From a virus, in IMG/VR virus record IMGVR_UViG_3300011440_000001: a stretch of DNA of 64,000 nucleotides. One strand, 5' to 3'. Both the position numbers and the translations under genes were made by a program. Of this stretch, positions 29,397 through 31,190 are shown one piece after another; position 1 is the first letter of the stretch; each line of letters opens with the position of its first letter. The notes below the pieces were generated by a model, which searched no databases, was not told the origin of the DNA, and saw only the letters and a list, made by a program, of their open reading frames with translations.

Positions 29397-29425
29397 TTGA
29401 CAACGGTGTCAAGCCACGGTACATT
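29397..29425 (+). promoter_or_regulatory. sigma70-like promoter with embedded palindromic operator (copy 3), upstream of the Y-RNA-like element and rsr
   Basis: TTGACA-N17-TACATT with palindrome TTGACA-ACGG-TGTCAA. Confidence 0.5.
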
Positions 29426-29432
29426 CGAGGCT

Positions 29433-29790
29433 CGCTGAAGGAGCGACCGTTGGCCAGGGGTGGCCTGCGGTCACGACCTGTCGGCGGGGCTTGCGGCGGC
29501 TGGCGTAACAATCGAGCGAGCGTCAGCCGTCGCAATAAACAGCGTGGGACCCGGTTCCGCGTGGTGAAGATGGCGGTTACTCCACTGAAGATGGTGAGGT
29601 CGCTGGTTCGAGTCCAGCCAGGCGCGGCTTGCCGGGCCTGTAGCTCAGTTGGCAGAGCGCATTGTTACCGCTGTCGCCTGTTCCCGCGGATTCATAAAGA
29701 TGAAACCGCCCTCAAGCGGTTAGCCTGCCGGTGGTGAAAGGACACGGTTACTTCTGCTGAAAAGAAGATAGCCCGCAAGGGCGACCGTGG
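29433..29790 (+). ncRNA. Y-RNA-like (YrlA-type) noncoding RNA with circularly permuted tRNA-like module at 29580..29658; ends uncertain
   Basis: No credible ORF. Contains anticodon-arm-like hairpin, variable AGGTC, T-arm GCTGG-TTCGAGT-CCAGC, acceptor 3' strand, CUUG loop, acceptor 5' strand GGGCCTG, TA, and D-arm GCTC-AGTTGGCA-GAGC. Located immediately 5' of the TROVE gene. Confidence 0.45.
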
Positions 29791-29831
29791 CCGATTGTTC
29801 CCCGGCTTCACGAGACTGAACGACGGGAGGC

Positions 29832-31190
29832 GTGATGAAGACCAACACCGCGAAGGCGCGCAAGGCACCCCGCACGCACGAGGGAGGCCGGGCAAAGACG
29901 ATCACCGCCGAGGCCCAGTTGCGCCGCTCCGTGATGGCGTGCCTGCTCTGGGAGGACACGTTCTACGAGGATGGCGTCCACATCGCCCAGCGCATCGCCG
30001 AGACGGTCCCGCGCGTCGAGGCCAATGCGGTGTTCGCGCTGGCGGTAGAGGCGCGCTCGCAGATGAATCTCAGGCACGTGCCGCTGGTGCTGGCGCGCGA
30101 GATGGCTCGCAATCCGCATCAGAGGCACGTGGTCGCGGAGACGCTTGCGAACGTCATCCAGCGTGCCGACGAGTTGAGTGAGTTTCTGGCGATCTACTGG
30201 AAGGACGGCCGCTGCAAGCTGGCCGCGGGCGTGAAGAAGGGGCTCGCACGGGCCTTCCCGAAGTTCAGCGCCTACCAGTTGGGCAAGTACAACAGCCGCG
30301 AGGCTTCAATCAAGCTGCGCGACGTGCTGTTCCTGTGCCACGCGAAGCCCAAGAGCCTCGAACAGGCCCAGGTGTGGAAGGCGCTCGCGGATGGGACGCT
30401 TGCGGCTCCTGACACGTGGGAGGTGGCGCTGTCGGGCGGGGCGGACAAGAAAGAGACCTTCACGCGCCTGATGGCAGAGGGCAAGCTCGGGGCGCTCGCC
30501 TTGCTGCGCAACCTGCGCAACATGGAGCAGGCCGGAGTCGAGCGCGAGGCAATTCGCCAGGCGCTCGCGGCGGCCGACGTGTCGCGCGTCCTGCCCTTCC
30601 GGTTCATCGCCGCGGCGCGGTACGCGCCTTCGCTCGAGCCCGATCTCGAGGCTGCCATGTTCAGGTCGCTGGGGGACGATGTGACCGCCCGCCTGCCGGG
30701 GCGCACGGTGCTGTTCGTCGATGTAAGCGGCTCCATGGAACACGCGCTGTCGCTGAAGTCCGACATGCGCCGGGTGGATGCAGCGTGCGGGCTGGCGATG
30801 GTGCTGCGCGAACTGTGCGACGACATCGCGGTGTTCACGTTCAGCGACAAGGCCGTGTTGGTGCCGGCGCGGCGTGGCTTCGCCCTGCGCGACGTCATCG
30901 TCAACAGCCAGGAGCATGGTGGGACATATCTGGCGGAAGCCATCACGAGTACCAAGTCCGTGGCCGGGCAGTACGACCGGATCGTCGTCATCACCGACGA
31001 GCAGGCCCACGATGGCATTGCCGACCCGCGGCGCCAGGCCAAGGCATACGTCATCAACGTCGCGTCCTACAAGAATGGCGTCGGCTACGGACGCTGGACC
31101 CACCTCGACGGCTTCTCTGAGGCCGTGCTCCGGTGGATGTCCGCATACGAGCGGAGGGGTCTTGTTCAGGCGGAGCCTCGGGAAGAATAG
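29832..31190 (+). CDS. rsr: Ro60 ortholog Rsr (TROVE domain + C-terminal vWA/MIDAS)
   Basis: TROVE signatures LLWEDTFYEDG and AVFALAVEARSQ. C-terminal MIDAS FVDVSGSM. SD GGGAGG. Confidence 0.7.
   Translation: MMKTNTAKARKAPRTHEGGRAKTITAEAQLRRSVMACLLWEDTFYEDGVHIAQRIAETVPRVEANAVFALAVEARSQMNLRHVPLVLAREMARNPHQRHVVAETLANVIQRADELSEFLAIYWKDGRCKLAAGVKKGLARAFPKFSAYQLGKYNSREASIKLRDVLFLCHAKPKSLEQAQVWKALADGTLAAPDTWEVALSGGADKKETFTRLMAEGKLGALALLRNLRNMEQAGVEREAIRQALAAADVSRVLPFRFIAAARYAPSLEPDLEAAMFRSLGDDVTARLPGRTVLFVDVSGSMEHALSLKSDMRRVDAACGLAMVLRELCDDIAVFTFSDKAVLVPARRGFALRDVIVNSQEHGGTYLAEAITSTKSVAGQYDRIVVITDEQAHDGIADPRRQAKAYVINVASYKNGVGYGRWTHLDGFSEAVLRWMSAYERRGLVQAEPREE

What the first reader, a model, noticed from the sequence alone, without database searches (positions are those of the whole stretch)
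29397..31190. Ro60/Rsr (TROVE+vWA) gene preceded by a Y-RNA-like element with a circularly permuted tRNA-like module
29580..29658 reads as anticodon-arm-like hairpin, variable loop, T-arm (GCTGG-TTCGAGT-CCAGC), acceptor 3' strand, CUUG tetraloop, acceptor 5' strand (GGGCCUG), U8A9, D-arm (GCUC-AGUUGGCA-GAGC). This is a tRNA cloverleaf whose acceptor stem is closed by a loop and whose 5' and 3' halves are swapped. It has no ORF. It lies downstream of a consensus-like promoter (29397..29425) and immediately upstream of a TROVE-domain gene. The TROVE gene carries Ro60 signatures (LLWEDTFYEDG, AVFALAVEARSQ, C-terminal MIDAS VDVSGSM). This matches the YrlA class of bacterial and phage Y RNAs that mimic tRNA and bind Rsr. 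The exact RNA ends and the Rsr-binding helix could not be resolved by eye.
Basis: partly seen in the sequence, partly recalled or inferred. Interest (0 to 1): 0.75.

Follow-up and report, generated by a model that had tools for sequence, protein, structure and literature searches.

The report
Phage Ro60 gene with two Y RNAs
Just upstream of a phage gene for the ring-shaped RNA-binding protein Ro60/Rsr lie two small non-coding "Y RNAs", one carrying a circularly permuted tRNA look-alike; this arrangement is already known from bacteria and a few phages, so it is a solid but ordinary new example.

Summary

- **Protein:** 29835..31190 encodes a TROVE + Ro60-vWA protein. Its closest solved relative is Thermus phage phiLo Ro60.
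- **Y RNA 1:** 29556..29690 is a full-length YrlA-like RNA. Rfam YrlA scores 37.8 bits, below the curated cut-off of 69. A covariance model built only from 14 phage relatives scores it 101 bits (E 5e-21).
- **tRNA-like domain:** The anticodon-stem equivalent is the Y RNA's own inner helix. Rotating the RNA at the acceptor loop makes ARAGORN call a tRNA.
- **Rsr-binding stem, now resolved:** 6-bp outer helix, bulged U, two G-C pairs, asymmetric loop (5' UGAA / 3' GCCUGUU), 8-bp inner helix. All 16 pairs covary across 81 relatives.
29726..29807 (82 nt) has the same stem and no tRNA module (55 bits, E 1e-13).
- **Other copies:** There are no other copies in the 64 kb window.
- **Unexplained:** The structured leader 29426..29555.
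- **Relatives:** Related phages and Acidobacteriota genomes carry arrays of such RNAs beside rsr, with 8 model matches in Caulobacter phage CcrColossus.

Verdict: new member of a known kind.

The parts
29397..29425 (+). Sigma-70-like promoter candidate (TTGACA, 17-nt spacer, TACATT)
   Evidence: only match in 29000..31500, 10 of 12 bases, 0.3 expected in shuffles. This is a consensus match only; function is not tested.
29426..29555 (+). Structured leader with two long hairpins (about 29427-29492 and 29493-29533); role unknown
   Evidence: MFE -69.5 kcal/mol, z = -3.64, 1 of 200 shuffles folds as well. It has no Y RNA module and no similar sequence in the 29 database sequences searched: 27 related loci plus the rest of the window.
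29556..29690 (+). Y RNA 1, YrlA type (135 nt): an Rsr-binding stem plus a circularly permuted tRNA-like domain
   Evidence: Rfam YrlA 37.8 bits, E 8.8e-7, full length. Model R2, built from 14 other phage loci: 101.2 bits, E 5e-21. Model R1: 43.3 bits, E 3e-10. The MFE fold equals the comparative structure.
29556..29576 (+). Y RNA 1, 5' strand of the Rsr-binding stem. Outer helix UCCGCG (29556-61), bulged U (29562), GG (29563-64), loop UGAA (29565-68), inner helix GAUGGCGG (29569-76). It contains GGUGAAG, a C-to-U variant of the published GNCGAA(N)G motif.
   Evidence: all helices covary in relatives. The motif definition comes from PMC4201824.
29577..29601 (+). UUAC (the YUAY element), the V-arm hairpin CACU-GAAGAU-GGUG (29583-29596), and the variable-loop end AGGUC with C48-equivalent at 29601
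   Evidence: fold. The V helix is kept in relatives at 74% of cells, with 3 of 4 pairs showing compensatory changes. Rfam aligns the hairpin as an 11-nt insertion.
29602..29618 (+). T arm GCUGG-UUCGAGU-CCAGC
   Evidence: 100% of cells paired in relatives and the loop is nearly invariant.
29619..29640 (+). Acceptor-like stem closed by a CUUG loop (5 bp, a G.G mismatch, 3 bp)
   Evidence: All 7 modelled pairs show compensatory changes in relatives.
29641..29658 (+). UA (U8 A9 equivalent) and D arm GCUC-AGUUGGCA-GAGC (A14, G15, G18 G19, A21 present)
   Evidence: G15 (29648) and C48 (29601) could form the Levitt pair, read directly from the sequence.
29668..29690 (+). Y RNA 1, 3' strand of the Rsr-binding stem. 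Inner helix CCGCUGUC (29668-75), loop GCCUGUU (29676-82), CC (29683-84), outer helix CGCGGA (29685-90).
   Evidence: The 3' motif CGNNUGUUCC is conserved across relatives.
29704..29721 (+). Hairpin AACCGCCCUCAAGCGGUU in the 35-nt spacer between the two Y RNAs. It has no U tract on the + strand.
   Evidence: It scores as terminator-like only on the - strand, where no gene ends. Function unknown.
29726..29807 (+). Y RNA 2 (82 nt, YrlB-like). Outer helix UGCCGG/CCGGCU, bulged U 29732, GG 29733-34 with CC 29800-01, loop UGAAA / GAUUGUU, inner helix 29740-48 with 29784-92, UACUUC, then two small hairpins (29751-67 and 29771-82, the second with a GCAA loop). No T or D arm.
   Evidence: Model R1, built from 22 short Y RNAs of other loci: 55 bits, E 1.3e-13, full length. 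Fold z = -3.90, 0 of 200 shuffles as good. No Rfam family matches it.
29825..29830 (+). Shine-Dalgarno-like GGGAGG, 4 nt before the ATG
   Evidence: Read from the sequence.
29835..31190 (+). rsr: Ro60/Rsr orthologue, 451 aa (an alternative GTG start lies at 29832). TROVE ring plus vWA domain with MIDAS motif DVSGS.
   Evidence: Pfam TROVE 3.6e-16, vWA_Ro60 4.5e-9. PHROG 850 'RNA-binding protein' 4.6e-52. PDB 9KOP/9L5Y, Thermus phage phiLo Ro60, E 2.3e-27.

Best explanation
This is the rsr operon of a tailed phage. The major head protein gene lies at 7147..8448, and a giant 3,618-aa ORF also lies in the window.

A sigma-70-like promoter at 29397..29425 would give one transcript. That transcript carries a structured leader, two Y RNAs and then the rsr ORF, with no + strand terminator in between.

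Both Y RNAs share one protein-binding stem:
- a 6-bp helix formed by the RNA's own 5' and 3' ends;
- a bulged U;
- two G-C pairs;
- an asymmetric internal loop (5' YGNA, 3' GNNUGUU);
- an 8-9-bp inner helix.

They differ in what caps the stem. Y RNA 1 (29556..29690) is capped with a circularly permuted tRNA mimic: V arm, T arm, closed acceptor stem, D arm. Y RNA 2 (29726..29807) is capped with two small hairpins.

Inferred steps, by analogy with M. smegmatis YrlA/YrlB, D. radiodurans Yrn1 and Thermus phage phiLo Yrl1/2:
- The two RNAs are cut out of the precursor.
- Each binds the outer face of the Rsr ring through the conserved 5' strand (UGGUGAAG).
- The bound Y RNA gates the ring's cavity and, through its distal module, tethers Rsr to an effector. 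The most likely effector is the host 3'-5' exoribonuclease PNPase. The phage would thereby redirect structured-RNA decay or RNA quality control during infection.

Shown here: the sequence elements, their structure, their conservation and covariation, and their exclusive linkage to rsr.
Inferred: transcription, processing, Rsr binding, and the effector.
For: Protein identity.

YrlA-type RNA:
- Rfam YrlA full-length hit, E 8.8e-7.
- Leave-one-out model R2: 101.2 bits, E 5e-21.
- 36-pair structure on 14 relatives: 88.6% of cells paired against 64% in shuffles, and 28 pairs with compensatory changes.
- RNAalifold on 11 sequences including the window: 23 of 30 pairs compensatory.

tRNA permutation: ARAGORN calls the rotated sequence a tRNA.

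Second Y RNA: model R1, built without the window, finds exactly two hits in 64 kb on both strands. They are 29726..29807 (E 1.3e-13) and 29556..29690 (E 3e-10).

Rsr-binding stem: all 16 pairs show compensatory changes across 81 matches, including the two G-C pairs (A-U in 8, C-G in 3). 93% of cells are paired against 62% in shuffles and 42-53% when partners are slid. The structure-blind, gap-free alignment agrees.

Linkage to rsr:
- All 81 matches in 24 IMG/VR loci and cultured phages lie on the rsr strand, next to rsr (mostly just upstream; downstream in L003, L004 and L017, and one of four in L010).
- All 243 matches in 80 genome loci lie on the rsr strand and upstream of it.
- A plain regex scan gives 200 + strand hits against 4 - strand hits.

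No intrinsic terminator on the + strand between promoter and rsr.

Precedents:
- YrlA and YrlB both lie upstream of rsr and come from one precursor in M. smegmatis (PMC4201824).
- Phage phiLo Ro60 binds two upstream Y-like RNAs and forms a ternary complex with host PNPase (PMC12135203).
Against: - Rfam's curated YrlA threshold is not reached (37.8 against 69 bits).
- The published 5' motif GNCGAA(N)G is GGUGAAG here, a C-to-U change.
- There are no expression, processing or binding data for this phage, whose host is unknown.
- The 130-nt structured leader is unexplained and has no detectable relative.
- No close relative of the locus exists. The best Rsr identity is 64% in the viral, genome and metagenome scans, so nothing can be said about conservation of the exact sequences.
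- Whether the tRNA-like module binds PNPase is unsettled even in the model organisms. Deleting the T arm of Yrn1 did not change complex assembly (PMC4201824).
- The pairing inside the asymmetric loop cannot be decided from covariation. The alternative G8-G9 with Y47-Y48 is compatible, but only through one-sided changes.
Confidence: 0.85

Rival explanations
1. The two modules are not free-standing RNAs. They are cis-acting parts of the rsr 5' untranslated region. Rsr would bind its own leader and autoregulate translation or mRNA stability, and no stable small RNAs would accumulate.
For: Both modules lie between the only promoter-like site and the rsr start codon, with no terminator between them. 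Y RNA 2 ends 27 nt before the ATG. Expression as separate RNAs has not been shown for this phage.
Against: - In relatives the same modules occur in arrays (6 by regex in L001, 8 model matches in CcrColossus). They also occur downstream of rsr (L003, L004, L017) or about 1-1.4 kb upstream (L010, L014). That placement does not fit a translational operator.
- An elaborate, covarying tRNA mimic is not needed for an operator.
- In M. smegmatis the equivalent upstream YrlA and YrlB are processed from one precursor and co-immunoprecipitate with Rsr as discrete RNAs (PMC4201824).
- The two readings are not mutually exclusive.
Confidence: 0.1
2. The T and D arms are remnants of two adjacent tRNA genes: the 3' half of one followed by the 5' half of the next, or a decayed tRNA or attachment site. 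Their position next to rsr would be coincidental.
For: - The Rfam tRNA model gives a weak hit at 29557..29626 (21.6 bits, E 0.055).
- ARAGORN at lowered thresholds calls a 'tRNA-Phe' in the first 73 nt.
- Public phage records annotate tRNAs on equivalent elements: CcrColossus tRNA-Gln and prophiGD43A-5 tRNA-Thr.
Against: - The strand after the T arm and the strand before the D arm pair with each other into a closed stem that covaries in relatives (7 of 7 pairs compensatory). Two unrelated tRNA halves would not do this.
- The whole module sits inside a covarying stem with conserved Rsr-type motifs.
- The full architecture recurs next to rsr in dozens of unrelated loci.
- ARAGORN does not call the native sequence at default settings.
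Confidence: 0.02
3. These are chance hairpins in G+C-rich intergenic DNA, with no RNA gene present.
For: The fold of the 146-nt stretch 29550..29695 is not exceptional against shuffles (z = -1.07). The Rfam gathering scan is silent.
Against: E-values of 5e-21, 3e-10 and 1.3e-13 come from models that never saw the window. There are exactly two hits in 128 kb of searched strand, and both lie directly upstream of rsr. Y RNA 2 folds at z = -3.90.
Confidence: 0.01

Closest known systems
YrlA (Rfam RF02553; S. Typhimurium and M. smegmatis YrlA; Chen et al. 2014, PMC4201824; structure PDB 6CU1, bioRxiv 10.1101/312249)
   Same: - Encoded just upstream of rsr on the same strand.
- A stem formed by the RNA's 5' and 3' ends carries a GNYGAA-type motif.
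- YUAY element (UUAC), V arm, near-invariant T arm, and a closed acceptor-like stem.
- UA linker, near-invariant D arm, and a possible G15:C48 Levitt pair.
- Overall a circularly permuted tRNA mimic.
   Different: - It scores 37.8 bits, below Rfam's cut-off of 69.
- The motif is GGUGAAG, not GNCGAAG.
- The Rfam-type pairing of GGYGA with UCGCY is not supported in this clade. At pair 12-44, 24 of 35 sequences are unpaired.
- Instead, both strands of the binding site are conserved (5' U-GG-YGNAG, 3' CGNNUGUUCC). An extra outer helix closes the RNA.
- In S. Typhimurium and M. smegmatis only the 5' strand is recognisable.
- The acceptor-like stem has 8 bp plus a G.G mismatch.
YrlB of M. smegmatis and S. 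Typhimurium; Yrn2 of D. radiodurans (second Y RNAs of bacterial rsr loci)
   Same: A shorter Y RNA lies beside the YrlA-type RNA and has the same protein-binding motif. In M. smegmatis it sits between YrlA and rsr and comes from the same precursor, which is the arrangement seen here for Y RNA 2.
   Different: There is no detectable sequence relationship beyond the binding motif. Y RNA 2 has two short hairpins, not a long hairpin with a pyrimidine-rich loop, and it has no T arm (M. smegmatis YrlB has a possible one). No Rfam family covers it.
Thermus phage phiLo Ro60 with Yrl1 and Yrl2 (PMC12135203; PDB 9KOP, 9L5Y)
   Same: This is the closest solved protein (E 2.3e-27). It is a phage-encoded Ro60 with two Y-like RNAs upstream of the gene, each with a stem - internal loop - stem layout and a CGAA-type motif. 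That paper shows binding and a ternary complex with host PNPase.
   Different: The protein match is distant (phmmer E 2.3e-27; identity not reported). In the passages read, the phiLo RNAs are not described as having a tRNA-like domain. That phage belongs to a different lineage with a thermophilic host.
Y RNA array of Caulobacter phage CcrColossus and relatives (Brevundimonas jumbo phages, Xanthomonas phage MET23-P3)
   Same: The Rsr clade is the same (about 66-70% nucleotide identity in parts), and so is the Y RNA stem architecture. The YrlA-like members are also below the Rfam threshold (42.3, 30.5 and 29.9 bits). CcrColossus is cited as a phage with Y RNA-like ncRNAs.
   Different: Those phages carry more copies (8 model matches in CcrColossus, 5 in MET23-P3), against two here. 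CcrColossus units have spacers that pair across each unit, which the window lacks. None of these RNAs is annotated in the public records.
Metazoan Y RNAs and D. radiodurans Yrn1
   Same: They bind Ro60 through a conserved bulged helix formed by the RNA's 5' and 3' ends. Both strands of the site are conserved, as in this clade. By my own comparison from memory of hY1, the 5' strand UGGUGAAG resembles vertebrate UGGUCCGAAG without the CC.
   Different: Metazoan Y RNAs have no tRNA-like module. Yrn1 has its T and D elements in the other orientation. The 3' strand motif (UGUUCC) differs.

Membership tests
YrlA (Chen et al. 2014; Rfam RF02553) | Encoded within about 4 kb of an Rsr/Ro60 (TROVE) gene, on the same strand | tested here: met
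   Y RNA 1 ends 144 nt before the rsr ATG on the + strand.
YrlA (Chen et al. 2014; Rfam RF02553) | Scores at or above the curated Rfam gathering threshold (69 bits) | tested here: not met
   37.8 bits, E 8.8e-7, full-length alignment; silent in the gathering-mode scan. The CcrColossus YrlA-like RNAs also fail (42.3 bits and lower), as do all 20 related loci scanned.
YrlA (Chen et al. 2014; Rfam RF02553) | GNCGAA(N0-1)G motif near the 5' end (putative Rsr contact) | tested here: inconclusive
   The window has GGUGAAG (29563-29569), with the C replaced by U. Across 35 relatives this position is C or U in about equal numbers. Binding is not testable here.
YrlA (Chen et al. 2014; Rfam RF02553) | Near-invariant T stem-loop and D stem-loop with tRNA-like loops | tested here: met
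   GCUGG-UUCGAGU-CCAGC and GCUC-AGUUGGCA-GAGC. In the Rfam alignment the T and D arms match the consensus apart from compensated stem changes and one D-loop residue. Both helices are 100% paired in relatives.
YrlA (Chen et al. 2014; Rfam RF02553) | [quoted passage not shown] | tested here: met
   29619..29640. In relatives, 7 of 7 modelled pairs show compensatory changes.
YrlA (Chen et al. 2014; Rfam RF02553) | YUAY element starting the variable region, and often a V stem-loop upstream of the T arm | tested here: met
   UUAC at 29577-29580 and hairpin at 29583-29596. U23, A24 and C25 of the motif are invariant in the 11-sequence alignment.
YrlA (Chen et al. 2014; Rfam RF02553) | tRNA tertiary-interaction nucleotides: U8 A9, A14, G18 G19, A21, Levitt pair 15:48, T54 Psi55 C56 and A58 equivalents | tested here: met
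   All are present in the sequence (UA 29641-42; AGUUGGCA; C 29601 with G 29648; UUCGA). The three-dimensional fold and the modifications were not tested.
YrlA (Chen et al. 2014; Rfam RF02553) | Bound by Rsr in vivo; substrate of TruB and DusA | not testable with these tools
   Needs immunoprecipitation and modification mapping.
Phage/Acidobacteriota-type Y RNA stem defined here (models R1 and R2) | Outer helix, bulged U, two G-C pairs, loop 5' YGNA / 3' GNNUGUU, inner helix starting G:C, then YUACUUC | tested here: met
   Both window RNAs match model R1 (built without them) over its full length: 55 and 43.3 bits. All 16 pairs covary.
Ro60/Rsr protein family | TROVE (HEAT-repeat ring) domain followed by a vWA domain with a MIDAS motif | tested here: met
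   Pfam TROVE and vWA_Ro60 both exceed their curated cut-offs. DVSGS is present. It aligns over residues 11-433 with phiLo Ro60.
Canonical tRNA | Open acceptor stem with 5' and 3' ends, and an anticodon stem-loop | tested here: not met
   The acceptor stem is closed by CUUG and there is no anticodon loop. ARAGORN makes no call at default settings, and the Rfam tRNA score of 21.6 is below 29.

The most novel reading that the evidence does not exclude
The window's two RNAs belong to a large, essentially unannotated sub-family of Y RNAs that Rfam's YrlA model misses. The sub-family is found in tailed phages, jumbo phages and many Acidobacteriota/Terriglobia genomes.

Its members have a Ro-binding site conserved on both strands, as in metazoa. 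They occur as tandem arrays of several units beside rsr (8 model matches in CcrColossus). All units share one constant Rsr-binding stem, but their distal modules differ: a full permuted tRNA mimic, a T arm only, small hairpins, or large multi-hairpin domains. The other circular permutation also exists, namely an open-acceptor, tRNA-shaped RNA that carries a closed Rsr-binding module in place of the anticodon loop.

Read this way, the arrays would be libraries of adaptors that couple a single Rsr ring to several different partners. The phage in the window would carry a minimal two-adaptor set.
Probability: 0.3. Interest if true: 0.6.

Novelty: new member of a known kind. Interest (0 to 1): 0.35.

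Why it matters
**For this window.** The result turns about 400 nt of 'intergenic' DNA into two defined RNA genes with exact ends. It shows that a phage of an unknown, probably soil-bacterial host carries its own Ro60-Y RNA particle. That adds to the few phage cases and to the idea from Thermus phage phiLo that phages use Rsr and Y RNAs to capture host RNA-decay enzymes.

**More generally.** The work shows that the curated Rfam YrlA threshold misses every related locus scanned at gathering level (the window, 20 IMG/VR loci and CcrColossus). Public phage records in that clade leave these RNAs unannotated or label parts of them as tRNAs. The work also supplies a covariation-supported model of the Rsr-binding stem. 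That model gives direct targets for mutagenesis and binding tests.

Tried and rejected
1. **Rfam at gathering thresholds.** The whole window gave only one tRNA. Twenty related loci gave no YrlA. YrlA appears only in E-value mode.
2. **Rfam-type pairing of the 5' motif (GGYGA with UCGCY).** Rejected for this clade: at pair 12-44, 24 of 35 sequences are unpaired and there is no compensatory change. The competing pair 15-44 covaries. A variant that keeps G8-G9 paired with Y47-Y48 cannot be excluded on the blind alignment. The compensatory A-U and C-G changes at 8-54 and 9-53 in the wider set favour pairing with the CC of GUUCC. That alignment is fitted to the model.
3. **Leader 29426..29555 as a third Y RNA.** It has no module by regex or by covariance model and no similar sequence in the related loci or the rest of the window. 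It remains unexplained.
4. **Search for close relatives.** I wanted them to test conservation of the leader and the exact RNA ends. The viral, genome and metagenome scans found nothing above 64% protein identity. The exact protein occurs only on Logan contigs of the same phage. No near match exists among 50,697 phage records.
5. **ARAGORN in intron mode.** It calls a 'tRNA-Phe' at 29443..29626 with a 93-nt intron. I judged this spurious. The same mode joins D and T arms of separate Y RNAs across hundreds of bases in other loci.
6. **Closed (other-permutation) Rsr-binding module in the window.** Only three or four regex hits, all far from rsr at 48-60 kb of the window, taken as chance.
7. **Hairpin 29704..29721 as a terminator.** It has a T run only on the - strand, so it is not a + strand terminator.
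8. **Papers not available.** Two review papers that might describe Y RNA copy numbers are not held, and the supplement of Chen et al. 2014 is not held as text. I therefore could not check which phages and how many copies were already listed.
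Full report
**1. What is in the sequence**

Protein and setting:
- It matches Pfam TROVE (3.6e-16) and vWA_Ro60 (4.5e-9), both above their curated cut-offs.
- It also matches PHROG 850 'RNA-binding protein' (4.6e-52).
- Its only solved relatives by sequence are the Ro60 of Thermus phage phiLo, PDB 9KOP and 9L5Y (E 2.3e-27).
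- The window is phage DNA. It holds a major head protein gene at 7147..8448 and a 3,618-aa ORF with a methyltransferase-like region, plus an exonuclease and a Gp3-like protein next to rsr.
- It corresponds to a 63.5-kb contig assembled from run SRR6448247. It has no near relative among 50,697 phage records.

Upstream of rsr:
- The only sigma-70-like site in 2.5 kb is TTGACA-17-TACATT at 29397..29425.

**2. Is it more than chance?**

- The default Rfam scan of the window reports only a tRNA at 20205.
- In E-value mode on 29350..29900, YrlA (RF02553) aligns over its full length to 29561..29683. The score is 37.8 bits and E 8.8e-7, below the gathering score of 69.
- Because that is sub-threshold, I built an independent test. 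Fourteen YrlA-like sequences from other phage loci were aligned with the window left out.
- I wrote a 36-pair structure on that alignment. It is 88.6% paired against 64.4% in column shuffles and 39-50% when partners are slid. Twenty-eight pairs carry compensatory changes.
- The covariance model built from it (R2) hits 29556..29690 at 101.2 bits, E 5e-21, over the full model. Nothing else in 64 kb scores comparably except the neighbouring RNA.
- The isolated 135 nt fold by minimum free energy into exactly this structure.
- Rotating the sequence at the acceptor loop, with no base changed, makes ARAGORN report a tRNA with a 55-nt 'intron'. The native order is not called. The phrase 'circularly permuted tRNA-like module' is therefore literally correct.

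**3. Anatomy, and two corrections**

I read the published description of YrlA (PMC4201824; bioRxiv 10.1101/312249). It gives a 5' GNCGAA(N)G motif, a YUAY element that begins the variable region, and often a V stem-loop. These are followed by the T arm, a closed acceptor-like stem, UA and the D arm. The anticodon-stem equivalent is formed by the strands that lead out to the Rsr-binding module.

Rfam treats it as an 11-nt insertion. The anticodon-stem equivalent is 29569-29576 paired with 29668-29675, extended by UUAC/GUUA.

tRNA tertiary-contact nucleotides are all present: U8 A9, A14, G15 with C48 (29648 and 29601), G18 G19, A21, and UUCGA in the T loop. The acceptor-like stem is 5 bp, a G.G mismatch, 3 bp and a CUUG loop. 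It is therefore longer than the 7 bp that made M. smegmatis YrlA an RNase P substrate.

**4. The Rsr-binding stem and the RNA ends**

I compared the window with 24 IMG/VR loci that encode relatives of this Rsr (38-60% identity for most). A recurrent module appeared by eye. It consists of:
- a 6-bp helix formed by the RNA's ends;
- a bulged U;
- GG;
- YGNAG;
- an inner helix, followed by YUACUUC;
- the return strand of the inner helix;
- CGNNUGUUCC;
- the return strand of the outer helix.

A plain regex for it finds exactly two copies in the window, 29556..29690 and 29726..29807. It finds tandem copies beside rsr in most related loci.

Covariation on a structure-blind alignment:
- I used a gap-free alignment of the two ends of 35 such RNAs.
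- The inner helix, which the regex did not select for, covaries. Pair 15-44 reads G-C 12, A-U 9, G-U 7, C-G 2, U-G 2.
- The pairing implied by the Rfam model (GGYGA with UCGCY) fails at 12-44, where 24 of 35 sequences are unpaired.

Independent model:
- A covariance model (R1) built from 22 short members of other loci recovers the two window copies and nothing else in the window. They score 55 bits (E 1.3e-13) and 43.3 bits (E 3e-10).
- On the 81 matches in viral and cultured-phage loci, all 16 pairs show compensatory changes. These include the two 'invariant' G-C pairs (A-U in 8 sequences; C-G, U-A or G-U in 6).
- That alignment is fitted to the model, so it leans towards the structure. The blind alignment agrees wherever it can speak.

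What stays undecided is the conformation inside the asymmetric loop (5' UGAA, 3' GCCUGUU in Y RNA 1).

Unlike S. Typhimurium and M. smegmatis YrlA, where only the 5' strand of the site is recognisable, this clade conserves both strands.

**5. A second Y RNA**

- 29726..29807 (82 nt) has the same stem: UGCCGG, U, GG, UGAAA, inner helix 29740-48 with 29784-92, then GAUUGUU, CC, CCGGCU.
- It also has the same UACUUC element. It is capped with two small hairpins instead of a tRNA mimic.
- It folds far better than shuffles (z = -3.90).
- No Rfam family matches it.
- Its position between the YrlA-type RNA and rsr is that of M. smegmatis YrlB, which is made from the same precursor as YrlA and binds Rsr.
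- Thermus phage phiLo likewise has two Y-like RNAs upstream of its Ro60. Both bind the protein, and a ternary complex forms with host PNPase.

**6. Linkage to rsr**

- All 81 R1 matches in the viral and phage set lie on the rsr strand, beside the gene: mostly just upstream, but downstream in L003, L004 and L017 and at one of four sites in L010.
- In 80 genome loci, mostly Acidobacteriota/Terriglobia MAGs with Rsr about 60% identical, all 243 matches lie on the rsr strand and upstream of it.
- The regex gives 200 + strand hits against 4 - strand hits there.
- Cultured phages carry unannotated arrays. Caulobacter phage CcrColossus has eight R1 matches upstream of gp139, and three of them give sub-threshold Rfam YrlA hits of 42.3, 30.5 and 29.9 bits.
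- Xanthomonas phage MET23-P3 has five R1 matches and Brevundimonas phage Marchewka has five.
- CcrColossus is cited in the literature as a phage with Y RNA-like ncRNAs, so this clade is not new in kind.

**7. How it most likely works**

Shown here:
- two structured, covarying RNA modules with a shared stem;
- a complete tRNA-like domain in one of them;
- exclusive association with rsr;
- one promoter-like site upstream and no + strand terminator before rsr.

Inferred from the named precedents:
- one precursor transcript is made;
- the two RNAs are excised;
- the conserved 5' strand binds the outer surface of the Rsr ring;
- the RNA gates the cavity;
[quoted passage not shown] I put 0.85 on 'these are Rsr-binding Y RNAs of YrlA and YrlB type', and well under half of that on the specific PNPase-tethering step. 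The role of the tRNA-like module is unresolved even in the model systems.

Rivals:
- A purely cis-acting autoregulatory leader (0.1, not exclusive). The arrays and the downstream or distant placement in relatives argue against it.
- tRNA gene remnants (0.02). The covarying closed acceptor stem and the enclosing stem refute this.
- Chance (0.01).

**8. What remains unexplained**

- The 130 nt between the promoter-like site and Y RNA 1 fold into two long hairpins (z = -3.64). They contain no Y module and have no detectable relative.
- No locus closer than 64% Rsr identity exists in the viral, genome or metagenome collections. Conservation therefore cannot be assessed.
- The 35-nt spacer hairpin (29704..29721) is likewise of unknown role.

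**9. Novelty and score**

An Rsr gene with an upstream YrlA-type Y RNA and a second short Y RNA, in a phage, matches published knowledge (Chen et al. 2014; the phiLo study of 2025). This is a new member of a known kind.

The added value is modest:
- exact ends for the two RNAs;
- a covariation-backed stem model that differs from the Rfam model;
- evidence that the curated Rfam threshold missed every member of this clade that I scanned at gathering level.

Interest: 0.35. The family-level observations made in passing are outside the window. They are the arrays with diverse distal modules and the tRNA-topology permutation. I could not check them against the two reviews that are not held. They are the basis of the novel case.

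Noticed in passing
window 29426..29555 (+): The leader between the promoter-like site and Y RNA 1 folds into two long hairpins (z = -3.64). It is not a Y RNA module, and no similar sequence was found in the 27 related loci searched or elsewhere in the window.
   Followed up: partly
L003 4639..4768; L004 3952..4076 and 4089..4217; L007 2537..2663: Inside Y RNA arrays next to rsr there are ~125-130-nt RNAs with normal tRNA topology: an open 7-bp acceptor stem, a D arm and a T arm. Rfam tRNA scores two of them (L003, L004 3952..4076) 43-45 bits, and ARAGORN calls all four tRNAs with a 47-55-nt 'intron'. Their 'anticodon arm' is a long stem that ends in a closed copy of the Rsr-binding module. This is the other circular permutation of YrlA. 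I did not find it described in the papers I could read.
   Followed up: partly
L030..L109 (80 genome loci, mostly Acidobacteriota/Terriglobia MAGs), positions 1..2500: Model R1 finds 243 Y RNA modules, all on the rsr strand and all upstream of rsr. The regex finds up to 6 per 2.5-kb flank, and arrays run off the fetched flank. Units have one constant stem and varied distal parts: T+D 50, T only 43, D only 6, and none 101 of the 200 regex hits.
   Followed up: partly
L026 1370..1437 (CcrColossus 'tRNA-Gln') and L110 1975..2053 (Mycobacterium phage prophiGD43A-5 'tRNA-Thr'): These annotated tRNAs lie inside or overlap YrlA-like elements just upstream of Ro-like protein genes. They are probably misannotations of the 5' half of a Y RNA. 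At lowered thresholds ARAGORN makes the same kind of call on the window's Y RNA 1.
   Followed up: partly
L026 1144..2190 (CcrColossus) and L001 2482..2860: In CcrColossus the spacers on either side of most units are complementary, which extends the terminal stem by 7-19 bp and may create double-strand-specific processing sites. In L001 six units are separated by regular 8-9-nt spacers.
   Followed up: partly
window 27559..27648 (+): ARAGORN calls a 90-nt tRNA with an 8-bp acceptor stem, a 3-bp D stem, a long variable arm and an 8-nt anticodon loop CCUUAGGU ('ttag'; Leu-UAG-like). Rfam does not report it at gathering level.
   Followed up: partly
window 36667..36744 (+): ARAGORN calls a tRNA-Met (CAT) that the Rfam gathering scan of the window did not list.
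   Followed up: no
window 47709..58565 (-): A single 3,618-aa ORF with a DNA-methyltransferase-like region (residues ~980-1180) and matches to giant phage proteins of unknown function.
   Followed up: no
L005 4059..4249: A permuted tmRNA (Rfam RF04321, 73.4 bits) lies about 2.5 kb downstream of rsr on an IMG/VR contig.
   Followed up: no
window 29270..29380 (+): A 36-aa hydrophobic ORF (MFDVFTVWGALSYFAVGFLFGAGFAVARKIVSRLLD) ends 17 nt before the promoter-like site. It is called as a gene on the Logan contig and has no family match.
   Followed up: no
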